Shown here: piece after piece, positions 7,420 to 51,157 of the stretch | How positions within the stretch are numbered: position 1 is the first letter of the stretch | Layout: every line of letters starts with the position of its first letter | Notes under the pieces: model-generated | Told to the model about the DNA's origin: nothing | Database searches by the model: none | The model's input: only the letters and a program-made list of their open reading frames with translations | Assembly (NCBI GenBank): GCA_964016885.1 | Contig: OZ024741.1 | Location: 170,128,001-170,192,000, forward strand | Direction: 5' to 3' | Origin: Eledone cirrhosa | Lineage: Eukaryota | DNA length: 64,000 nucleotides | Made by a program: the position numbers and the translations under genes

Positions 7420-9300
<1,881 letters not shown>

Positions 9301-30810: not shown

Positions 30811-31046
30811 TGTCCCCCTTGCTTCTGCTGGACATCACCAGAGGGCGTTAGCCCCCCCCCCCCCCCCGTGCTTGCATAGCTACGGCTTCCTAAAACCGTA
30901 TTTCTTTGGATATACGAAATATATATACATATTGTATAAAGCTATGCTTGAAGCGAAATCCTTTTTCTCTTTTATATATATATATATATATATATGAAAA
31001 CAGGGAGAAAGAGACGATTATGAGGAAGAAAATTATATATATATAT

Positions 31047-34000
31047 ATAGTATTAGTTATACTATTTATGGTTATGTAAATACAAAACCTAATGCAGTTA
31101 TAAGTATTTTACACACACCCTAAATAGTGGTAGGCAGTAATGTATTACTACCTTATTACCAGTAAGTTAAGTAGCTCAATGTAAAAACATCAGATGATTT
31201 ACAGAGCAGTTATATGAAATATAAGAATCAAAGAACTGTTCAAAACATTATTGTACTTACAGCTGTTTCCTCCAAACCGAGGTTTGGATTCTTCGGAGCA
31301 ATTTATTAATGCATGGACAGTTATATGACCTCCTTTTCAGCCGAGAGACATACCGATACATATTCAAACATTGATACATATTCAAACATTGTGGGTCAAC
31401 ATTCATTACAGAATTTAGAATGGCAGTACACACTTCGAGATTACATTTATATTAAGAGGTACAATCAAAAATCAAAAATACAGGTTAAAATACAACATGA
31501 AGATAAGCGGTTATATAGTGCAAATGTTATATGTGTGGCACGCATGTGCGTCTTGTTTATATAGTGTGGCAGAGAGATATGTGTGGTAGAGGCACTTAGG
31601 TAGGTAAACAAGAGTGTTAGGTTGGTAGATCTGGTGGCAAATTCTTTATATGATTGATATAGTCCGTGTGTGGAGAAATGTTATAAGCATTAAAAATTAA
31701 AAATAGTGCAAGCATTAAAAATGTTAAAAGTATTGGAGATGCACAGCGAAGGGATGTCAAGTATTTCATGTACTACTTCGGCATTTTCATGGTCAGGGGA
31801 GTGTATTTTTCGATTATATGCCCCTCACATAATCCACCGACAATCCGATATTGAGCGTTTGACAATCCAGTTAGAGATCGTAGTCTGGTGTTCTTTAGTT
31901 CAATACAGGAGGCTGTTACGTTTCAAGAAACGCCATTGAATACCACCCGGAAGTGTGTGTGTGTGGCTAAGGGGAGTTAATGCATGCGGGGAGGTAACTC
32001 CGGGGTTTCTATACCTAGCTATTAAAATGTGTCACAATATAGACCCTAATTTCTATGGTGATGCGCATCCTCCAAGAAAATTTTTAAAGCATAAAGTGTA
32101 TTAACTATAGAGTAGTTTAATTAAGTTATGCTGAAGGTGATCATATTATTATGGTGGATTAACCCATCGTAAGGTGCCACAAATGGAAATTATAGATGAT
32201 GAGCGAGGATTCTAAATTAATGATCTCTGTGGTTGTAGTCTACTCATAGGACCAGGCGCGGTGATTGCAGGATTGCTTCAGGACCCAATGATCTCTGGTA
32301 AGTTCTGGGTCAACGCTTGCTACATAGGATGTCGAAAGATAATCATCCCCAGGCCGGCCAGAGGTCAATCCGCAGTCCTCGCGACCCCTCTCTGACCGTC
32401 AGATCATCCATATATGTACAACCCGCACGGCAGTTGCAATGCATTCACTCTCTGCGCTCAGCAGCCTGGTCCTACTGCTCAACAGCGTTACTAGATTAAA
32501 TCATTTTTCATCTGTCTAAGGAAGGTGTTTCCTCTGCACAACACTATCCAACCGATCAATTCATGCTCAAATTACCCTTAGAGCGGTGTAGTGCCGTTCA
32601 AGTGGGTGGATGTTGTCACACCTGACGCAGAGGTATAAATGGGTATTCTCCCTGCGAAGGGTTCCAGAGGGATGTCGTTGTTTGTGTTATAATAGATCAG
32701 TTAGTGTTGGGTATGTAGTATAAGGTGTGTCTCTGGTGTTTGATGCTAGATGTGGTGTTAGGTTCCAGTCCGACATTGCTATATATTGGGCTTAAAGTTT
32801 TGGAAGGAATGTCTGAAGCGGTGCTGGCAAGTTGCAAACACCTCAGATTTTTTGTTAAGTAGGTTACGGTTGGAGAAGATAATATTGTGTGTCTCTAGTA
32901 TACAGAGGTTACAAAATTTATTAGGTGGTTTGTACGAGGTCGCGCTGCCTATCACTTCCCATTTGAGTGTGTATGGTTTATTTTTAGTTTTTAGATAGTG
33001 TATGTAGCTAGAAAGTGAGGTGGAGTTTGCTAGGCTGTGCTTTTTGAACGAGTGGATGTGCGAATTATATCTGATTTTGAAGCAGTTAGAAGTGGAGCCT
33101 ACATAGGTTTCTGAAGAGTTGTTAGTCGTGACGGTGCATGAGTATATGATATCCTTGGTTAGGCATTTTTTATCTAAAGGGCAGGTTCTATTAGCTCTAC
33201 AGTTACAATTATCCTGTGCGTTAGTCCGCTGGTTATAATGCCGTGCGGAAGTCTGTGTGGTAGCTATAGGATTTTGGGCGTTCGGGTTGACAACCCTGGT
33301 GTTATTACTTATACTAGTGTTATTTCTATTGTTACTGCCGTTGCTATGGTTGCTTGCTACAGTGGTATTTAGAGGGTTTGCATCCCGTTGTGATTTTGTT
33401 TGTTGGAAGTAAGAACTAATTTTACTATTATTGCTGCTAGCTATGTGGTATGCTAAGTTAGGCGTCGTAGAGTATGAGATTTTAATGGTGTTTTTCTTTA
33501 AGAGGTTGTGGTACTTGTGTCCTAGAGGGAAGTTTTTTATCTAGTAGTGAGAAGAAAGCCCTAGGTATGTTGGTGGAGACATTTAGGTTGAAAGGAGGGT
33601 TGAAAAATGTATTATTTCTTCTTCTATTTTTGCTTTTAGTGTTTGGTGTGTTGCTTCTTCCTAAGGCCCCACAGTAGTTACCATGGTAATGGTTACTTCC
33701 GGTGGCACCCTCCGCTTTGGTGTACTTGTGGTTGCTATTCCTATTATTAGGTTTCCTCATGGACATGTTGTGCGAGATGATGTTGTAGCTATGTGTTTTC
33801 TTAGGTAGGAACTCAATTTCTATATTATGGCCGGAGCTAGCTAATGCTTGATTGTAATATTGTGAGTTTTTGCTAAATATGTTTGCGTCATAGGACAGAC
33901 TAGAGATTCTATTGGACACCCCCTTAGAGATAGAGTTTAATATTGATCTAGGGTGATTAGACTTGGTATCTACGTAAATAAGTTTCTCGTTAGGCTTATG

Positions 34001-35786
34001 GAAAGGTGTATATATTTTTGAGTCTAGGTATAGTGAGGCGTCTAGGAAGTTAACATTTTTAGTGTTTTTGTCCATGGTGATACTAAGGTTAAAGTTTTTG
34101 AATGTCTTATGCAACTGTTTTCTAGTTCTTTCTATATTAAATTTTTTATATTCTATAAGTAGAAGTGCATCATCGCGGTACAAACCACCGTTGAGGTAAG
34201 GGAGGTCCTTATGGATTTCATTGAGAAGGTATAGGCCGACCAAATCAGTGACCTGCGCCGAGTCACTAGATCCCATGGTTATGTCGAAGTTGTTGTGCGT
34301 ATCCTTGCGTGTCCATAGTTGGTCCTCGAAGGTGATTATGGTTTTACGGGCCGCAAGGATGACATCAACCTGGGCTCTAGTCAGGTCGCTATTGCTCATG
34401 GCCATGATAAGTGCCTTATTTAATAGGATAGGGGAAATAGAGGTGTAGTATGAATTGATATCAAATTGAATACATTTTTTGTTCTTATTATTCTTGATAT
34501 CCTTGAACCATTCAATCACTTCACCCGTATTTCCCCATTGTTTAAGGTGTATCTTGTGTTTAATTTGTGGGATGATTTTATCCAAAATCTTCTTGCTGAT
34601 AATACCAATGTCGGACTTGGAAGGGCAGATAAGTCTTATCGTGGGGTTGCTGATGAAATTCTCCTTATGGTCCTTCAGAGAGAATCTAGGGGGGTTCGGG
34701 GTGAAAGGTTGTGTATGCCTCTGCAGTCCTAGTTTAGACACTATATTATAACCCTCTACATTAATATCTTCTAAGTTTTTCAAGGTGATTTTTTTGTAGC
34801 TTTTATGTAGTTCATTATATATAAACTTTCTATAAGTATTATAATCTAGGCTGTATATGTTATTAGTTTTATCTGCGTGTACAATAATTTTATTACTAGT
34901 TTTGAATCCATTAATAGAGGTGTTAAGTTTGTTTAAGAAGGTGTTGCTTCTAATATGGTGCTTATTGTATTTAATGTTCTTAACTAGTTTAACTAGGTCA
35001 TTTTCAAAGGAGTTAAGTAGTGTGTTATGAGGGGGGCTTTTAAAGGTTTTAAAGCCGAAGGACTCAAAATTGTTAGTATTATTCAAGTTGTTAGATCTGT
35101 TTCTATCATAATGGAATGTCCTCCATCTCACTCTATTGATAAATGAATTTACACTGTTGATCAGCAATTTCTCATATGTATTCCTGGATGGTATTGGCAT
35201 GTTCTTGGTTGACATGGGGAGTTGGTCTTTGATTAGCATATTGGCAATATTATATGTCAGCTCAACGATATGGAGCAGTTAATAGTATTAGTTATACTAT
35301 TTATGGTTATGTAAATACAAAACCTTATGCAGTTATAAGTATTTTACACACACCCTAAATAGTGGCAGGCAGTAATGTATTACTACCTTATTACCAGTAA
35401 GTTAAGTAGCTCAATGTAAAAACATCAGATGATTTACAGAGCAGTTATATGAAATATAAGAATCAAAGAACTGTTCAAAACATTATTGTGCTTACAGCTG
35501 TTTCCTCCAAACCGAGGTTTGGATTCTTCGGAGCAATTTATTAATGCATGGACAGTTATATGACCTCCTTTTCAGCCGAGAGACATACCGAAAAGGAGGT
35601 CATATAACTGGAGACATACTGAAAACTGGAGACATACTGAAAACTGGAGACTACTGAAAAGGAGGTCATATAACTGTCCATGCATTAATAAATTGCTCCG
35701 AAGAATCCAAACCTCGGTTTGGAGGAAACAGCTGTAAGCACAATAATGTTTTGAACAGTTCTTTGATTCTTATATTTCATATTTCA
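31047..35786 (-). mobile_element. Full-length Naiad-like PLE copy 1: direct pLTRs (35282-35590 / 31047-31355) plus inverted arm 35655-35786
   Basis: Highly similar to 46001-50614; three HHR copies; (TA)8 flanks. Confidence 0.93.
32779..35239 (-). pseudogene. Naiad-like RT/GIY-YIG ORF with a single +1 frameshift at about 33533-33538
   Basis: 2461 bp versus 2460 bp for the intact copy; A6 versus A5 run in DKNF. Confidence 0.92.
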
Positions 35787-35939
35787 TATATATATATATA
35801 TATTTCTTTTTTCCTTTTTTTTGTCTCTCTCTCTCGTTTTTCTGGGTTAGAAAATGATTAAAACGAAATGTTTTACTTTGTGTGAAGTGTTAAGGTATTA
35901 GTTGATTTATTTATTATTTAACAATGGCATTTATTTATC

Positions 35940-36026
35940 TATCTGGACGACTGCTTCATCCTCTGGCATGAAAGTATAGATAGACTGTTTGAGTTCAAAA
36001 CCCTTCTGAATAAGCTCAACACTAAC
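35940..36026 (+). pseudogene. Isolated PLE RT active-site fragment
   Basis: YLDDCFILWHESIDRLFEFKTLLNKLNTN. Confidence 0.7.
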
Positions 36027-36058
36027 TAAAACATTTCGTTTTAATAATTTTCTAACCC

Positions 36059-36092
<34 letters not shown>

Positions 36093-36220
36093 AAAAAAAG
36101 AAAAAAAAAATGTTTCCTCCTCATAATCGTCTCTTTCTCCCTGTTTTCATATATATATATATATATCCTAACTCGTGTGCCTCCTCTCCACATTTTATTA
36201 TATATATATATATATATAGA

Positions 36221-37448
36221 GATAATTTAATATATCAACTAACATAATCGCACAGATGCACGCCTATGCCAGCAAATACACAGGTTATGTCATAGTACCT
36301 AGGTGGTTCAATGCAGGAGGATGCAGAACAATAATATAAAAGACGTAAAATAAGAAAATCTTTTTTAAAAAATTTTTTACTTACTTAAATTTTCACTCCA
36401 ACTAATTAGTTTCTGCAATGGGATAAAGACAGTTACGTAATCTAACTGTCGAGAATTCATTGCGTCATCAGGGAGTCTATTCTCAGCTAAGTCTCCAGGC
36501 AATGCGCGGACACTGGCGGCTCATATAAAAATAATAATAATTCGGTAGATGGAACAGCTGGCGAGGACTGAATTCCATGCACTGAAATCCTCACTGCTTC
36601 TAGTCAAATGGCCGATTCTAAAGAATCAATCACGTGACACAGAGGCTAGTCAGAAGGAATGGGATGGTAAGTGGACTGACGCCTACTAGCACCCCCCAAA
36701 AAAAAATTTTTTTAGAAGTGGTTTTGGCAGGTTTGCTCGACAAATCAGTGATTTGGAGATAAATATAGATAATTTAATATATCAACTAACATAAGCGCAC
36801 AGATGCACGCCTATGCCAGCAAATACACAGGTTATGTCATAGTACCTAGGTGGTTCAATGCAGGAGGATGCAGAACAATAATATAAAAGACGTAAAATAA
36901 GAAAATCTTTTTTAAAAAATTTTTTTTAAAAATTTTTTACTTACTTACTTAAATTTTCACTCCATAGGCGTGCATCTGTGCGCTTATGTTAGTTGATATA
37001 TTAAATTATCTATATTTATCTCCAAATCACTGATTTGTCGAGCAAACCTGCCAAAACCACTTCTAAAAATTTTTTTTGGGGGGGGGGTGTTAGTAGGCGT
37101 CAGTCATCTTACCATCCCATTCCTTCTGACTAGCCTCTGTGTCACGTGATTGATTCTTTAGAATCGGCCATTTGACTAGAAGCAGTGAGGATTTCAGTGC
37201 ATGGAATTCAGTCCTCGCCAGCTGTTCCATCTACCGAATTATTATTATTTTTATATGAGCCGCCAGTGTCCGTGCATTGCCTGGAGACTTAGCTGAGAAT
37301 AGACTCCCTGATGACGCAATGAATTCTCGACAGTTAGATTACGTAACTGTCTTTATACCATTGCAGAAACTAATTAGTTGGAGTGAAAATTTAAGTAAGT
37401 AAAAAATTAAAAAAAAAATTTTTTTAAAAAAGATTTTCTTATTTTACG

Positions 37449-45186: not shown

Positions 45187-45328
45187 ATATATATATATAT
45201 ATATATATATAAGTTGAAATAAAATGAAAACGAAATTTCATTTCTCACTCTTAGTATGGCACTTACTTAAATGTAAGTATGTATGTATACGTACATACAT
45301 ATATGTATACAGACGTACAGTAGCATGC

Positions 45329-45423
<95 letters not shown>

Positions 45424-45581
45424 TACATACAGGTACACATACATATATGCACGCATCAGTTTAGCGGGCGCTTATTATAACGCCGCTTTGTTCGTTTGTG
45501 AACAAACTGAACAGCCTGAATTTATGCCATACGGTGTTAAGGCAACCACGTCACCTTTTTGTTCAACACTGACACAGGAAC

Positions 45582-45620
45582 GATGTACTAGTTTCAAGCT
45601 TGTTAGCTATCATCAGCACC
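45582..45620 (-). ncRNA. Minimal type I hammerhead ribozyme, family D
   Basis: ggtg-CTGATGA-t-agct aaca agct-t-GAAA-ctag-TA-catc. Confidence 0.8.
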
Positions 45621-45862
45621 GTATACCCATCTGCCATATAGTTGAACGTTCGAAAGTATATACTTTCCTTATGAAAATTAACGTCTGAGCAGCCTAATTT
45701 GCATATTGAGTGAGTTAAATCGGTCAGGCATACCGAAAACGATAAGTTGAAATAAATAAAATGAAAACGAAATTTCATATCTCACTCTTAGTATGGCACT
45801 TACTTAAATGTAAGTATGTATGTATACGTACATACATATATGTATACAGACGTACAGTACCA

Positions 45863-45996
<134 letters not shown>

Positions 45997-46325
45997 TATA
46001 CCAACCTAACACTCTTATTTACCTACCTAAGTGCCTCTACCACACATATCTCTCTGCCACACTATATAAACAAGACGCACATGCGTGCCACACATATAAC
46101 ATTTGCACTATATAACCACTTATCTTCATGTTGTACTTTAACCTATATCTTTGATTTTTGATTGTACCTATTAATATAAATGTAATCTCGAAGTGTGTAC
46201 TGCCACTCTAAATTTTGTAATGAATGTTGACCCACAATGTTTGAATATGTATCAATGTTTGAATATGTATTGGTATGTCTCTCGGCTGAAAGGGAGGTCA
46301 TATAACTGTCCATGCATTAATAAAT

Positions 46326-46372
46326 TGCTCCGAAGAATCCAAACCTCGGTTTGGAGGAAACAGCTGTAAGCA
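46326..46372 (+). ncRNA. Minimal hammerhead with U4C core variant (also 50525-50571, 35694-35740, and minus copies near 31257-31300 and 35489-35535)
   Basis: tgct-CCGAAGA-a-tccaaacc tc ggtttgga-g-GAAA-cagctg-TA-agca. Confidence 0.78.
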
Positions 46373-46621
46373 CAATAATGTTTTGAACAGTTCTTTGATT
46401 CTTATATTTCATATAATTGCTCTGTAAATCATCTGATGTTTTTACATTGAGCTACTTAACTTACTGGTAATAAGGTAGTAATACATTACTGCCTACCACT
46501 ATTTAGGGTGTGTGTAAAATACTTACAACTGCTTAAGGTTTTGTGTTTACATAACCATAAATAGTATAACTAATACTATTAACTGCTCCATATCGTTGAG
46601 CTGACATATAATATTGCCAAT

Positions 46622-49081
46622 ATGCTAATCAAAGACCAACTCCCCATGTCAACCAAGAACATACCAATACCATCCAGGAATACATATGAGAAATTGCTGA
46701 TCAACAGTGTAAATTCATTTATCAATAGAGTGAGATGGAGGACATTCCATTATGATAGAAACAAATCTAACAACTTGAATAATACTAACAATTTTGACTC
46801 CTTCGGCTTTAAAACCTTTAAAAGCCCCCCTCATAACACTCTACTTAACTCCTTTGAAAATGACCTAGTTAAACTAGTTAAGAACATTAAATACAATAAG
46901 CACCATATTAGAAGCAACACCTTCTTAAACAAACTTAACACTTCTATTAGTGGATTCAAAACTAGTAATAAAATTATTGTACACGCAGATAAAACTAATA
47001 ACATATACAGCCTAGATTATATTACTTATAGAAAGTTTATATATAATGAACTACATAAAAGCTACAAAAAAACCACCTTGAAAAACTTAGAAGATATTAA
47101 TGTAGAGGGTTATAATATAGTGTCTAAACTAGGACTACAGAGGCATACACAACCTTTCACTCCGAACCCCCCTAGATTCTCTCTGAAGGACCATAAGGAG
47201 AACTTCATCAGCAACCCCACGATAAGACTTATCTGCCCTTCCAAGTCCGACATTGGTATTATCAGCAAGAAGATTTTGGATAAAATCATCCCACAAATTA
47301 AACACAAGATACACCTTAAACAATGGGGAAATACGGGTGAAGTAATTGAATGGTTTAAGGATATCAAGAATAATAAGAACAAAAAATTTATTCAATTTGA
47401 TATCAATTCATACTACACCTCTATTTCCCCTATCCTATTAAATAAGGCACTTATCATGGCCATGACCAATAGCGACCTGACTAGAGCCCAGGTTGATGTC
47501 ATCCTTGCGGCCCGTAAAACCATAATCACCTTCGAGGACCAACTATGGACACGCAAGGATACGCACAACAACTTCGACATAACCATGGGATCTAGTGACT
47601 CGGCCCAGGTCACTGATTTGGTCGGCCTATACCTCCTCAATGAAATCCATAAAGACCTCCCTTACCTCAACGGTGGTTTGTACCGCGATGATGCACTTCT
47701 ACTCATAGAATATAAAAAATTTAATATAGAAAGAACTAGAAAACAACTGCATAAGACATTCAAAAACTTTAACCTTAGTATCACCATGGACAAAAACACT
47801 AAAAATGTTAACTTCCTAGACGCCACACTATACCTAGACTCAAAAATATATACACCTTTCCATAAGCCTAATGAGAAACTTATTTACGTAGATACCAAGT
47901 CTAATCACCCTAGATCAATATTAAACTCTATCTCTAAGGGGGTGTCCAATAGAATCTCTAGTCTGTCCTATGACGCAAACATATTTAGCAAAAACTCACA
48001 ATATTACAATCAAGCATTAGCTAGCTCCGGCCATAATATAGAAATAGAGTTCCTACCTAAGAAAACACATAGCTACAACATCATCTCGCACAACATGTCC
48101 ATGAGGAAATCTAATAATAGGAATAGCAACCACAAGTACACCAAAGCGGAGGGTGCCACCGGAAGTAACCATTACCATGGAAACTACTGTGAGGCCTTAG
48201 GAGGAAGCAACACACCAAACACTAAAAGCAAAAATAGAAGAAGAAATAATACATTTTTCAACCCTCCTTTCAACCTAAATGTCTCCACCAACATACCTAG
48301 GGCTTTCTTCTCACTACTAGATAAAAACTTCCCTCTAGGACACAAGTACCACAACCTCTTAAACAAAAACACCATTAAAATCTCATACTCTACGACGCCT
48401 AACTTAGCATACCACATAGCTAGCAGCAATAATAGTAAAATTAGTTCTTACTTCCAACAAACAAAATCACAACGGGATGCAAACCCTCTAAATACCACTG
48501 TAGCAAGCAACAATAGCAACGGCAGTAACAATAGAAATAACACTAGTATAAGTAATAACACCAGGGTTGTCAACCTGAACACCCAAAATCCTATATCCAC
48601 CACACAGACTTCCGCATTGCATTATAACCAGCGGACTAACGCACAGAATAATTGTAACTGTAGAGCTAATAGAACCTGCCCTTTAGATAAAAAATGCCTA
48701 ACCAAGGATGTCATATACTCATGCACAGTCACGACTAATAACTCTTCAGAAACCTATGTGGGCTCCACTTCTAACTGCTTCAAAATTAGATATAACTCGC
48801 ACATCCACTCGTTCAAAAAGCACAGCCTAGCCAACTCCACCTCACTTTCTAGCTACATACACTATCTAAAATCTAAAAATAAACCATACACACTCAAATG
48901 GGAAGTGATAGGCAGCGCGACCTCGTACAAACCACCTAATAAATTCTGTAACCTCTGTATACTAGAGACACACAATATTATCTTCTCCAACCGTAACCTA
49001 CTTAACAAAAAATCTGAGGTGTTTGCAACTTGCCAGCACCGCCTCAGACATTCCTTCCAAAACTTTAAGCCCTATATATAG
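46622..49081 (+). CDS. Penelope-like (Naiad-like) reverse transcriptase / GIY-YIG endonuclease, 819 aa, uninterrupted
   Basis: KNIPIPS, ADKTNNIY, LKDHK, RLICPSKSDIG, FDINSYYTSIS, ITMGS, LYRDD, FLD, CNC..CPL..KC, VIYSC..YVGST, CNLC, CQHR. Clade assignment is by resemblance, not by a tree. Confidence 0.93.
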   Translation: MLIKDQLPMSTKNIPIPSRNTYEKLLINSVNSFINRVRWRTFHYDRNKSNNLNNTNNFDSFGFKTFKSPPHNTLLNSFENDLVKLVKNIKYNKHHIRSNTFLNKLNTSISGFKTSNKIIVHADKTNNIYSLDYITYRKFIYNELHKSYKKTTLKNLEDINVEGYNIVSKLGLQRHTQPFTPNPPRFSLKDHKENFISNPTIRLICPSKSDIGIISKKILDKIIPQIKHKIHLKQWGNTGEVIEWFKDIKNNKNKKFIQFDINSYYTSISPILLNKALIMAMTNSDLTRAQVDVILAARKTIITFEDQLWTRKDTHNNFDITMGSSDSAQVTDLVGLYLLNEIHKDLPYLNGGLYRDDALLLIEYKKFNIERTRKQLHKTFKNFNLSITMDKNTKNVNFLDATLYLDSKIYTPFHKPNEKLIYVDTKSNHPRSILNSISKGVSNRISSLSYDANIFSKNSQYYNQALASSGHNIEIEFLPKKTHSYNIISHNMSMRKSNNRNSNHKYTKAEGATGSNHYHGNYCEALGGSNTPNTKSKNRRRNNTFFNPPFNLNVSTNIPRAFFSLLDKNFPLGHKYHNLLNKNTIKISYSTTPNLAYHIASSNNSKISSYFQQTKSQRDANPLNTTVASNNSNGSNNRNNTSISNNTRVVNLNTQNPISTTQTSALHYNQRTNAQNNCNCRANRTCPLDKKCLTKDVIYSCTVTTNNSSETYVGSTSNCFKIRYNSHIHSFKKHSLANSTSLSSYIHYLKSKNKPYTLKWEVIGSATSYKPPNKFCNLCILETHNIIFSNRNLLNKKSEVFATCQHRLRHSFQNFKPYI

Positions 49082-50616
49082 CAATGTCGGACTGGAACCT
49101 AACACCACATCTAGCATCAAACACCAGAGACACACCCTATACTACATACCCAACACTAGCTGATCCATTATAACACAAACAACGACATCCCTCTGGAACC
49201 CTTCGCAGGGAAAATACCCATTTATACCTCTACGGCAGGTGTGACAACATCCACCCACCTGGACGGCACTACACCGCTCTAAGGGTAATTTGAGCATGAA
49301 TTGATCGGTTGGATGGTGTTGGGCAGAGGAAACACCTTCCTTAGACAGATGTAAAATGATTTAATCGAGTAGCGCTGTTGACCAGTAGGACCGGGCTGCT
49401 GAGCGCAGTGAGTGAATGCAATGCAACTGCCGTGCGGGTTGTACGTATATGGATGATCTGGCGGTCAGAGAGGGGTCGCGAGGACTGCGGATTGACCTTT
49501 GGCCTGCCTGGGGACGATTATCTTTCGACATCCAATGTAGCAAGCGATGACCCAGATCTTACCAGAGATCATTGGGTCCTGAAGCAATCCTGCAATCACC
49601 GCGCCTGGTCATATGAGCAGACTACAACCACAGAGATCATTAATTTAGAATCCTCGCTCATCATCTATAATTTCCATTTGTAGCACCTTAAGATGGGTTA
49701 ATCCACCTTAATAATAATATGATCACCTTCAGCATAATTTAGTTAAACTACTCTATAGTTAGTACACTTTATGCTTTAAAAGCCTCTCTTGGAAGGTGCA
49801 CCTCACCATAGAATTTAGGGTCCATATTGGGACACATTTTAATGGCTAGATATAGAAACCCCAGAGTTACCTCCCCGCATGCATTAACTCCCCTTAGCCA
49901 CACACACACTTCCGGTATTCAATGGCGTCTCTCGAAACGTAACAACCTCCTGTATCGAACTAAAGAACACCAGACTACGATCTCTAACTGGATTGTCGTG
50001 GATTATGTGAAAGGCATATAATCGAAATATACACTCCCTTGACCATGAAAATGCCGAAGTACATGAATTACTTGACATCCCTGCGTTGTGCATCTCCAAT
50101 ACTTATAACACTTTTAATACTTGCACTACCTTTAATGCTTATAATATTTCTCCACACACAGACTACATCAATCATATAAAGACTTTGCCACCAGATCTAC
50201 CAACCTAACACTCTTATTTACCTACCTAAGTGCCTCTACCACACATATCTCTCTGCCACACTATATAAACAAGACGCACATGCGTGCCACACATATAACA
50301 TTTGCACTATATAACCACTTATCTTCATGTTGTACTTTAACCTATATCTTTGATTTTTGATTGTACCTATTAATATAAATGTAATCTCGAAGTGTGTACT
50401 GCCACTCTAAATTTTGTAATGAATGTTGACCCACAATGTTTGAATATGTATCAATGTTTGAATATGTATTGGTATGTCTCTCGGCTGAAAGGGAGGTCAT
50501 ATAACTGTCCATGCATTAATAAATTGCTCCGAAGAATCCAAACCTCGGTTTGGAGGAAACAGCTGTAAGCACAATAATGTTTTGAACAGTTCTTTGATTC
50601 TTATATTTCATATACA

Positions 50617-50672
<56 letters not shown>

Positions 50673-50938
50673 CAGGTACACATACATATATGCACGCATC
50701 GGTTTAGCGGGCGCTTATTATAACGCCGCTTTGTTCGTTTGTAAACAAACTGAACAGCCTGAATTTATGCCATACGGTGTTATGTCGTTCCTGTGTCAGT
50801 GTTGAACAAAAAGGTGACGTGGTTGCCTTAACACCGTATGGGATAAATTCAGGCTGTTCAGTTTGTTTAGAAACGAACAAAGCGGCGTTATAATAAGCGC
50901 CCGCTAAACTGATGCGTGCATATATGTATGTGTACCTG

Positions 50939-51013
<75 letters not shown>

Positions 51014-51066
51014 GCATGCTACTGTACGTCTGTATACATATATGTATGTACGTATACATACATACT

Positions 51067-51157
<91 letters not shown>

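What the first reader, a model, noticed from the sequence alone, without database searches (positions are those of the whole stretch)
30995..36150. Nested site suggesting the Naiad insertion created its flanking (TA)n
Seen: an older fold-back has a left arm (30995-31033 + 35803-35876) split by Naiad copy 1 and an uninterrupted right arm (36027-36150). At the insertion point the left arm has (TA)8 on both sides of the PLE, while the right arm reads ggaaaca|tttttttttt with no TA tract. The PLE end also stutters (atttcat atttcat). Known: PLE RTs are the closest relatives of telomerase. Inference: reiterative TA synthesis during insertion may help explain the extreme (TA)n load. This is a single site and the arms are somewhat diverged.
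Basis: partly seen in the sequence, partly recalled or inferred. Interest (0 to 1): 0.75.

Follow-up and report, generated by a model that had tools for sequence, protein, structure and literature searches.

The report
Retroelement landed in a TA repeat
A young Penelope-like retroelement sits inside an older one with (TA)8 on both sides; 35 other insertions of the same family and dozens of empty sister sites show that the family lands in TA repeats that already exist, so this insertion likely duplicated part of its flanking TA rather than creating it.

Summary
A 4.7 kb retroelement (31050-35787) splits one arm of an inverted structure, has (TA)8 on each side, and shows a terminal ATTTCAT stutter. 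The other arm has no TA at the homologous point.

The interpretation mostly does not hold.
- The insert is not a Naiad. Its single ORF runs RT then GIY-YIG, with Hydra-clade motifs.
- The "fold-back" is itself a two-armed insertion of a Neptune-like PLE. In 42 sister copies the site is a 0-7 bp TA seed in 40 and has grown to 14 and 30 bp in 2, without any insert.
- All 57 outer 3' ends in 36 insertions of the insert's family abut TA-rich tracts. Some of these are old, interrupted arrays over 300 bp long.
- Copy 2 in the window sits in a repeat whose 16 empty copies all carry 15-129 bp of TA.
- Only 6 of the window's 119 TA tracts touch this element.

Three things remain of interest. The stutter recurs at 8 of 27 termini of that type and at 0 of 27 internal copies of the same site, which points to slippage at initiation. 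Flanking TA sums exceed the length-biased expectation by about 20 bp, which fits a target-site duplication. All 21 two-armed insertions have one end of each type. TA synthesis at this one site is not excluded.

The parts
30973..30995 (.). (TA)11 outside the left end of the host element; the host's own target tract
   Evidence: Sister copies of the host also abut (TA)n of 8-66 bp here.
30996..31033 (-). Host element, arm 1, outer piece: reverse complement of the last ~38 nt of a Neptune-like PLE (3' end ...CCCTGTTTTCA)
   Evidence: 92-100% identical to the matched stretch in sister copies. The family has 1373 first-look candidates.
31034..31049 (.). (TA)8 on the left of the insert
31050..35787 (-). 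Guest retroelement, copy 1: PLE with a Hydra-type ORF. On the minus strand it reads: inverted partial arm (35787-35654), pLTR (35591-35282), RT frame (35239-33482), frameshift, CxCX5C + GIY-YIG frame (33540-32779), about 1.4 kb of 3' UTR, pLTR (31356-31047). The main arm ends at ...AACTAATAC (31050 side). The inverted arm ends at ...TTTCAT (35787 side).
35775..35787 (+). Terminal stutter TTTCAT-ATTTCAT at the end of the inverted arm
   Evidence: Recurs at 8 of 27 such termini and at 0 of 27 internal copies of the site.
35788..35803 (.). (AT)8 on the right of the insert
35804..35942 (-). Host element, arm 1, inner piece (3' UTR in reverse complement)
   Evidence: 87-99% identical (all but one at least 97%) to 29 other genomic copies.
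35943..36026 (+). Host element, arm 2: RT fragment LDDCFILWHESIDRLFEFKTLLNKLNTN, joined directly to the 3' end region (internal deletion)
   Evidence: Same sequence as the RT frame of sister copy L005.
36027..36149 (+). Host element, arm 2: last ~123 nt of the 3' UTR. Holds the uninterrupted site GGAAACA-T10-C-T8.
36150..36198 (+). Host-internal (TA)9 plus a 31-nt tail (CCTAACTCGTGTGCCTCCTCTCCAC...)
   Evidence: The same tail follows a 12-18 bp TA in 6 of 7 tail-bearing sister copies.
36199..36218 (.). (TA)10 outside the tail; the host's target tract on the right
45996..50614 (+). Guest retroelement, copy 2 (96% identical to copy 1). Open 832-codon RT-EN frame at 46583-49078. Ends at ...TTTCAT. 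Flanked by about 134 bp and about 55 bp of TA.
50943..51013 (.). Empty mirror-arm spacer of the repeat that hosts copy 2: about 71 bp of TA

Best explanation
A Penelope-like retroelement with a Hydra-type RT-then-GIY-YIG reading frame is nested in the 3' UTR of an older Neptune-like Penelope-like element, and it most likely landed in a (TA)n tract that had already grown there from a short TA seed, with staggered nicks probably duplicating part of that tract.

Shown directly:
- The anatomy of both elements.
- The family's invariable TA-rich flanks.
- Pre-existing TA at empty sister sites of other insertions.
- Two alternative 3' ends (E4577 ...TTTCAT and E4737 ...AACTAATAC, 160 nt apart), each followed inside the element by TAT(A/T)AACTGCTC.
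- One end of each type in every two-armed insertion.
- The recurrent terminal stutter.

Inferred mechanism, following the in vitro work on another PLE (PMC11167929). The endonuclease would nick both strands inside (TA)n. Each TA-ended 3'-OH would pair with a short UAUA-like motif beside one of two internal start sites on the RNA and prime cDNA. This would give two inverted, 5'-truncated arms with unlike ends. A stagger of roughly 10-25 nt would leave a TA-rich target-site duplication. Occasional realignment on the UAUA motif would give the stutter. On this reading, the (TA)8/(TA)8 at copy 1 is a split and partly duplicated tract of about 8-16 repeats.
For: (1) All 57 outer 3' ends in 36 insertions abut a TA-rich tract, while pure TA tracts make up 5.7% of the window.
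(2) L065 and L080 lie in interrupted TA arrays of more than 300 bp. These arrays are much older than inserts that are 93-100% identical to copy 1.
(3) Copy 2 lies in the TA spacer of a repeat whose 16 empty copies, including the mirror arm at 50943-51013, all hold 15-129 bp of TA, median 58. L073 and L092 each have a flank from the same repeat.
(4) The host site is a variable seed. In 40 of 42 sister copies the longest alternating TA/AT run is 0-7 bp. Two copies have grown it to 14 bp (L017) and 30 bp (L022) with no insert.
(5) Target-site duplications are readable in two events. L083 has at least 16 unique nt plus TA. L093 has ATATAAATA, with at most 4 nt of TA between the element end and the duplication.
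(6) The sum of the two TA flanks in the 21 two-armed events has a median of 66 bp. The size-biased median of 450 background tracts is 42 bp (95% interval 23-63 for the median of 21 draws). The excess of about 20 bp is the size of such duplications.
(7) Left and right flank lengths are uncorrelated (Spearman 0.08, p 0.72), and near-equal pairs (5 of 21) are not above chance (permutation p 0.22).
(8) TA bias is reported for both Hydra and Naiad clades (PMC8557442). Two internal RT start sites, a tail between them, and cutting and extension of both strands are reported in PMC11167929.
Against: The three sister copies most like the left arm (L107, L028, L006) carry only TTAT, TTATAT or ATATAT at the site, so the pre-insertion TA at this particular locus is not seen directly. 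Only 2 of 42 empty copies have grown a tract.

The 20 bp excess could also come from TA synthesis, or from a preference for long tracts. The background sample is only about 150 kb: the window and 29 loci.

In L083 the left copy of the duplication is followed by 15 nt of TA plus CTCA that are absent after the right copy. This looks like TA made at insertion, unless a 7-nt deletion or an older local duplication explains it.

Five one-ended insertions (L061, L066, L079, L082, L091) have TA at the 3' junction only.
Confidence: 0.6

Rival explanations
1. One reading: the reverse transcriptase made the flanking TA at insertion. It would copy a UAUA motif at its start site over and over, as telomerase does, starting from the host's short TA seed.
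For: Terminal units TTTCATA(TA) are reiterated 2-6 times at 8 of 27 E4577-type termini and never at 27 internal copies of the site (Fisher about 0.004, my arithmetic). The number of TA steps between units varies (L070), so the enzyme does realign on TA. L083 has a 15-nt TA filler after a non-TA primer end. The family's usual sequence at the copy 1 site is a 0-7 bp seed. Flank sums run about 20 bp above expectation. Five one-ended insertions have TA at the 3' junction only.
Against: Several E4737-type junctions show an interruption within 3-9 nt of the element (L066, L068, L071, L079, L084). L093 shows at most 4 nt of TA between element and duplication. Long tracts of new pure TA are therefore not the rule. 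Many flanks are old interrupted arrays or compound microsatellites. Empty sister sites of copy 2 already hold TA. The two flank lengths are uncorrelated and range from 10 to 88 bp, much like background tracts. If seeds were sufficient targets, most insertions should sit at seeds, which far outnumber long tracts. That last point is inference.
Confidence: 0.2
2. The element entered at a short seed or short tract, and both flanks grew afterwards by ordinary microsatellite slippage.
For: TA tracts are very unstable here, with 119 tracts of at least 12 bp in 64 kb. Two sister sites grew without any insert. The two 300-nt repeats of copy 1 differ by about 1%, so some time has passed.
Against: It would need two independent expansions to the same 16 bp at a young insertion. 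It also leaves unexplained why all 57 ends in the family touch TA.
Confidence: 0.1
3. The TA lengths at the junctions are assembly errors.
For: TA tracts and inverted PLE structures are hard to assemble; PMC8557442 section 6 says so for short-read assemblies. I could not lay reads on the site.
Against: Both junctions are short (16 bp). The same architecture recurs at 36 loci on many contigs.
Confidence: 0.03

Closest known systems
Hydra clade of Penelope-like elements (Craig et al. 2021, PMC8557442; section 11 read)
   Same: C-terminal GIY-YIG. DKT instead of DKG (ADKT). A CxCX5C linker (CNCRANRTC). No CxxC inside the GIY-YIG core. CxxC (CNLC) and CxH (CQH) near the C-terminus. Insertion into (TA)n. 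Relatives in aquatic invertebrates.
   Different: No hammerhead ribozyme, whereas the paper calls it universal in the clade. The unit is about 4.2 kb rather than under 3 kb. It has RWR rather than RWK. No phylogeny was made here.
Naiad clade of Penelope-like elements (same paper; section 6 read)
   Same: pLTRs, an inverted 5'-truncated partner, a tail at one end, no hammerhead, and a strong (TA)n bias that hides target-site duplications.
   Different: Naiads have the EN at the N-terminus, a KR-rich block plus a CxC domain between EN and RT, and DKA. Here the EN is C-terminal in a single 832-codon frame, and the motif is DKT.
Poseidon PAc of Anolis, studied in vitro (Frangieh et al. 2024, PMC11167929; abstract and main text read)
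   Same: Two internal RT start sites with a tail between them. Both DNA strands are cut and extended. Cleavage prefers AT-rich DNA.
   Different: In PAc the start site has no homology to the cut DNA and the tail is 30-40 bp. Here both ends show 3-4 nt of TA overlap with the flank and the tail is 160 nt. The stutter and the one-end-of-each-type rule are not mentioned in the parts I read.
Neptune-type canonical PLEs (as described in PMC8557442)
   Same: The host element has RT followed by a CX5CxxC linker (CGRPNCGIC) and a GIY-YIG with CSGC...H...H inside the core. It also sits in (TA)n.
   Different: Assignment rests on motifs only. Its tail is separated from the body by an internal (TA)6-9.
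3' repeat slippage of LINEs, and birth of microsatellites from retroelement tails (UnaL2, L1/Alu poly(A)). Only the search listing (titles and abstract starts) of PMC1636434 and PMC3812793 was seen; the rest is recalled.
   Same: A reverse transcriptase realigns on a short terminal repeat when it starts on the nicked target. Insertions can seed or lengthen simple repeats.
   Different: Those elements start at the RNA 3' end. Here the start is internal, and the repeat mostly pre-exists in the target.
Telomerase
   Same: [quoted passage not shown] Reiterated copying of a short template stretch is the formal likeness of the stutter.
   Different: No dedicated template RNA. Repeats of 2-6 units at 30% of one type of end, not processive arrays. 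No IFD was looked for.

Membership tests
Naiad PLE | GIY-YIG endonuclease N-terminal to RT (permuted order) | tested here: not met
   The frame order is RT (ADKT, YRDD), then NPPF, CNCR, YVGST. Copy 2 and L074 have one open 832-codon frame in this order.
Naiad PLE | DKG motif changed to DKA | tested here: not met
   The motif reads HADKT.
Naiad PLE | No canonical hammerhead ribozyme | tested here: met
   No hammerhead family in Rfam at E up to 1 (30900-36300) or up to 10 (31040-32800). No CUGANGA box on the sense strand of either copy.
Naiad PLE | Insertion-in-fingers domain between RT3(A) and RT4(B) | not tested
   No reference alignment was at hand.
Hydra PLE | C-terminal GIY-YIG in a single ORF | tested here: met
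   The EN region is 38% identical to a Solemya velum protein that carries Pfam GIY-YIG. Pfam itself finds nothing on the window's frames.
Hydra PLE | DKG changed to DKT; RWK motif near the N-terminus | tested here: inconclusive
   ADKT is present. The N-terminal motif reads RWR, not RWK.
Hydra PLE | Linker CxCX5C; no CCHH inside the GIY-YIG core; CxxC and CxH near the conserved E and N | tested here: met
   CNCRANRTC, CNLC and CQH are all present. There is no CxxC between IIY and YVG, whereas the host EN has CSGC there. The two Cys in the core are absent from the Solemya relative.
Hydra PLE | Canonical hammerhead ribozyme present | tested here: not met
Hydra PLE | Short element (under 3 kb) | tested here: not met
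   The direct repeats are spaced 4235 nt apart.
Hydra PLE | Insertion into (TA)n | tested here: met
   57 of 57 outer 3' ends.
Hydra PLE | Placement inside the clade in an RT/EN phylogeny | not tested
   No reference sequences were held. The protein atlas gives only leads: the nearest clusters are cnidarian, mollusc and arthropod.
Penelope-like elements in general | pLTRs from partial tandems, an inverted 5'-truncated partner, and a tail at one end | tested here: met
   The tail is 160 nt (E4578-4737) and is present on one arm only in 21 of 21 two-armed insertions.
Neptune-type PLE (host element) | RT followed by a CX2-5CxxC linker and a GIY-YIG with CCHH | tested here: met
   L005, L009 and L030 frames: CGRPNCGIC ... 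NLIYVLTCSGCLEHYIGQ ... VHK. Pfam GIY-YIG E 2.5e-4, just under the cut-off. Clade placement was not tested.

The most novel reading that the evidence does not exclude
The reverse transcriptase of this Penelope-like family works in a telomerase-like way when it starts. It realigns on a UAUA motif beside its internal start site, and so adds TA units and whole TTTCATATA units to the nicked target. Every insertion then lengthens or even founds a (TA)n tract, and the elements and the TA repeats they target feed each other's spread.
Probability: 0.2. Interest if true: 0.7.

Novelty: new variant of a known kind. Interest (0 to 1): 0.35.

Why it matters
TA insertion bias of PLEs has so far been read from flanks alone, and target-site duplications are said to be undiscernible. 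This genome holds a very young family: 39 other places are 100% identical over 208 nt, from 679 first-look candidates. It also holds abundant repeats that serve as empty-site controls. That makes the question of targeting versus making TA testable here.

The answer is mainly targeting, with a likely TA-rich duplication of about 20 bp. The recurrent stutter and the strict pairing of unlike ends are in-genome footprints of the two internal RT start sites seen in vitro in a distant PLE. They could guide mechanistic work.

Tried and rejected
- Laying public reads to find an empty allele. The runs found are low-coverage contigs or RAD-seq and were not used.
- A second insertion at the same host site. 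The only full-length match (L096) has a different host.
- Whole-tract duplication or cutting at the centre of the TA palindrome. Near-equal flanks (5 of 21) and the left/right correlation are not above chance.
- Pfam and PDB sequence search find nothing on the guest ORF.
- The search of earlier findings had no notes for this genome.
- First versions of two scripts found no copies because of regex errors. One search mislabelled three ends (L061 right, L079 left, window copy 1 left), which I corrected by eye.
- Dropped before the counts: L075 (two copies of one fragment inside a satellite array), L071 block 2 and the 5' side of L074 block 1 (cut by locus ends), and blocks under 200 nt.
Full report
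**What is there**

The sequence reads GAAGAAAAT-(TA)8 (31034-31049), then a 4.7 kb insert (31050-35787), then (AT)8 (35788-35803)-TTCTTTTTTCC. The reverse complement of the other arm reads GAGGAGGAAACA-T10-C-T8 with no TA.

The insert has 300-nt direct repeats (31047-31346 and 35282-35581, 99%) and an inverted 129-nt partial copy at 35654-35782. Its right end reads TTTCAT-ATTTCAT.

**The insert is not a Naiad**

On the minus strand an RT frame (35239-33482; HADKT, GLYRDD, FNPPF) is followed, after a frameshift, by CNCRANRTC and a GIY-YIG (IIYSC...YVGST), then CNLC and CQH (33540-32779).

A second copy lies in the window at 45996-50614 and is 96% identical. That copy and genomic copy L074 carry all of this in one open 832-codon frame. 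The endonuclease is therefore C-terminal.

Craig et al. 2021 (PMC8557442; I read passages, section 6 and section 11) define Naiads by an N-terminal EN and DKA. They define the Hydra clade by a C-terminal EN, DKT, a CxCX5C linker, loss of the CCHH motif, CxxC and CxH motifs near the C-terminus, and insertion into (TA)n. All of the Hydra features fit here.

Three points do not fit Hydra:
- No hammerhead is found. Rfam gives none at E up to 1 or up to 10, and there is no CUGANGA box on the sense strand of either copy.
- The unit is about 4.2 kb.
- The N-terminal motif is RWR, not RWK.

Pfam and PDB sequence searches see nothing. The one longer relative found is a Solemya velum tandem RT-EN-RT-EN protein. 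Atlas neighbours are invertebrate RT/GIY-YIG clusters (leads only).

The family is very young. Thirty-nine other places are 100% identical over 208 nt, out of 679 first-look candidates.

**The "fold-back" is itself a PLE insertion**

The left arm is the reverse complement of the 3' UTR end of a high-copy element (1373 first-look candidates). In sister copies this continues for hundreds of bases.

The "loop" at 35943-36026 encodes LDDCFILWHESIDRLFEFKTLLNKLNTN. That is the RT motif C region of the same element in L005. There the frame goes on to a CGRPNCGIC linker and a GIY-YIG with CSGC...H...H (Pfam GIY-YIG E 2.5e-4). The host is thus a canonical, Neptune-like PLE.

The structure is therefore the usual PLE pair of inverted 5'-truncated arms, not an ancient hairpin. 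The right arm carries an internal (TA)9 (36150-36167) and a 31-nt tail. In 6 of 7 tail-bearing sister copies that TA is 12-18 bp, whereas ends without a tail abut TA of 8-66 bp.

**The empty-site test at copy 1**

I read the homologous site in 42 sister copies of the host (34, 8 more). It lies at an A-run/T-run boundary with a variable TA seed: ATATAT, ATATT, ATTTTTT, AAAATTT and so on. Forty copies have at most 7 bp of alternating TA.

Two copies have grown a tract with no insert: L017 (14 bp) and L022 (30 bp). The copies most like the left arm read AAAATTATTTT (L107) and AAAATTATATTTT (L028).

The right arm of the window is one more variant (AAACATTTT). It differs from the left arm by about 4 substitutions plus run lengths, so it cannot stand in for the pre-insertion state.

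The family's usual sequence has no comparable TA, but some empty copies do. No second insertion at this site was found among the 40 scored candidates.

**The family as a whole**

I fetched 34 stretches of 10 kb around other copies. With the window's two copies they give 36 usable insertions: 21 two-armed and 15 with a single outer 3' end.

All 57 outer 3' ends abut a TA-rich tract. Pure TA tracts of at least 12 bp make up 5.7% of the window (119 tracts).

Evidence that the TA was already there:
- L065 and L080 lie in interrupted TA arrays of more than 300 bp.
- Many flanks are compound microsatellites.
- Several E4737 ends have a TG or TT interruption 3-9 nt from the element.
- Copy 2 sits in the TA spacer of another repeat. 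Its mirror arm (50943-51013, about 71 bp of TA) and 15 further empty copies all carry 15-129 bp of TA, median 58. The filled sites hold 189, 99 and 61 bp.

Target-site duplications can be read twice:
- L083 has at least 16 unique nt plus TA.
- L093 has ATATAAATA, with at most 4 nt of TA between the element and the duplication.

**Does insertion add any TA?**

In the 21 two-armed events the two flanks sum to a median of 66 bp. The size-biased median of 450 background tracts is 42 bp, with a 95% interval of 23-63 for the median of 21 draws.

The surplus of about 20 bp has the size of the readable duplications. Synthesis, or a preference for long tracts, would also give it.

Left and right flank lengths are uncorrelated (rho 0.08). 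Near-equal pairs (5 of 21) are not above chance. The 16/16 at copy 1 is therefore not part of a rule.

Points in favour of synthesis:
- L083 has 15 nt of TA plus CTCA after the left duplication copy, and these are absent after the right copy.
- Five one-ended insertions have TA at the 3' junction only.

**Start sites, unlike ends and stutter**

Arms end at one of two points, E4577 (...TTTCAT) or E4737 (...AACTAATAC), 160 nt apart. Inside the element both are followed by TAT(A/T)AACTGCTC.

All 21 two-armed insertions have one end of each type. Under random pairing the chance is about 5e-7 (my arithmetic).

This matches the two internal RT start sites, the tail between them, and the cutting and extension of both strands shown in vitro for Anolis PAc (PMC11167929; abstract and main text read). 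Here, however, there are 3-4 nt of TA overlap with the target.

The stutter (2-6 TTTCAT units) occurs at 8 of 27 E4577 termini and at none of 27 internal copies of the site, which always read TTTCAT-AT-AACTGCTC (Fisher about 0.004). It therefore arises at insertion. The varying number of TA steps between units (L070) shows realignment on TA.

I did not see the stutter or the unlike-ends rule in the parts of the two papers I read. My two literature searches do not show that they are unpublished.

**Verdict**

The label Naiad is wrong.

The general claim does not hold for this family: the element lands in TA that already exists, as already published for Hydra and Naiad PLEs. It also does not account for the window's TA load, since only 6 of 119 tracts touch it.

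For this single site the pre-insertion state stays unknown. I put 0.6 on a pre-grown tract that was split and partly duplicated, 0.2 on TA made by the enzyme, and 0.1 on later growth.

Noticed in passing
window 30996-36198 (host) and loci L002-L030: The host 'fold-back' is a two-armed insertion of a Neptune-like PLE. Its 31-nt tail is separated from the body by an element-internal (TA)6-9. Its body ends in ...GTTTTCAT(AT)n, the same TTTCAT+(AT)n ending as one end type of the guest.
   Followed up: partly
L061-L094 and window copies 1 and 2: Every two-armed insertion of the guest family (21 of 21) has one arm ending at E4737 and the other at E4577. The 160-nt tail is therefore always on exactly one side.
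   Followed up: yes
window 45270-45583, 45806-45865, 50669-51070; loci L116-L142: A repeat built as an inverted pair around a palindromic core, with an internal (TA)n spacer (B'-(TA)n-A'). It often stands in arrays with a period of about 500 bp (L117, L120, L122, L128). It was hit by the guest element at window copy 2, and L073 and L092 each have one flank from it.
   Followed up: partly
window 46583-49078 (+) and L074: Open 832-codon RT-EN frames. Together with 39 places 100% identical over 208 nt, this suggests the family is or recently was active. Copy 1 carries a frameshift between RT and EN.
   Followed up: partly
L075 4884-5104 and 5804-6024: A 221-nt fragment of the guest's 3' region (E4356-4576) is repeated with a 920-nt period inside a TA-rich satellite (GTATTTGTATGTATTTTTATAGATATAT units). 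Here the element end is not followed by plain (TA)n.
   Followed up: no
L083 3820-3900 and 5100-5230: The target is a palindrome, TGCATACATTTTTAATTTGAAT-(TA)28-ATTCAAATTAAAAATGTATGCA, next to a (TA)21. A 15-nt TA filler plus CTCA lies between the duplication and the 5'-truncated element.
   Followed up: partly
L086 about 8447-8540 and L090 2688-3031: Tiny or partial guest fragments lie tail-to-tail a few TA repeats away from full insertions. This suggests repeated hits in one TA tract.
   Followed up: no
window 30853-30869: A run of about 17 C just left of the host element.
   Followed up: no
L010 1968-3134 (-): A 389-codon open frame of a LINE-like reverse transcriptase lies near a host-family copy. 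It is unrelated to the finding.
   Followed up: no
L096 1440-1565: Two diverged tandem units, GCTAGCATGGAA..GTTAAA..GATGATGAT+(TA)n, precede a guest insertion. This looks like the 3' part of a SINE-like repeat that ends in TA.
   Followed up: no
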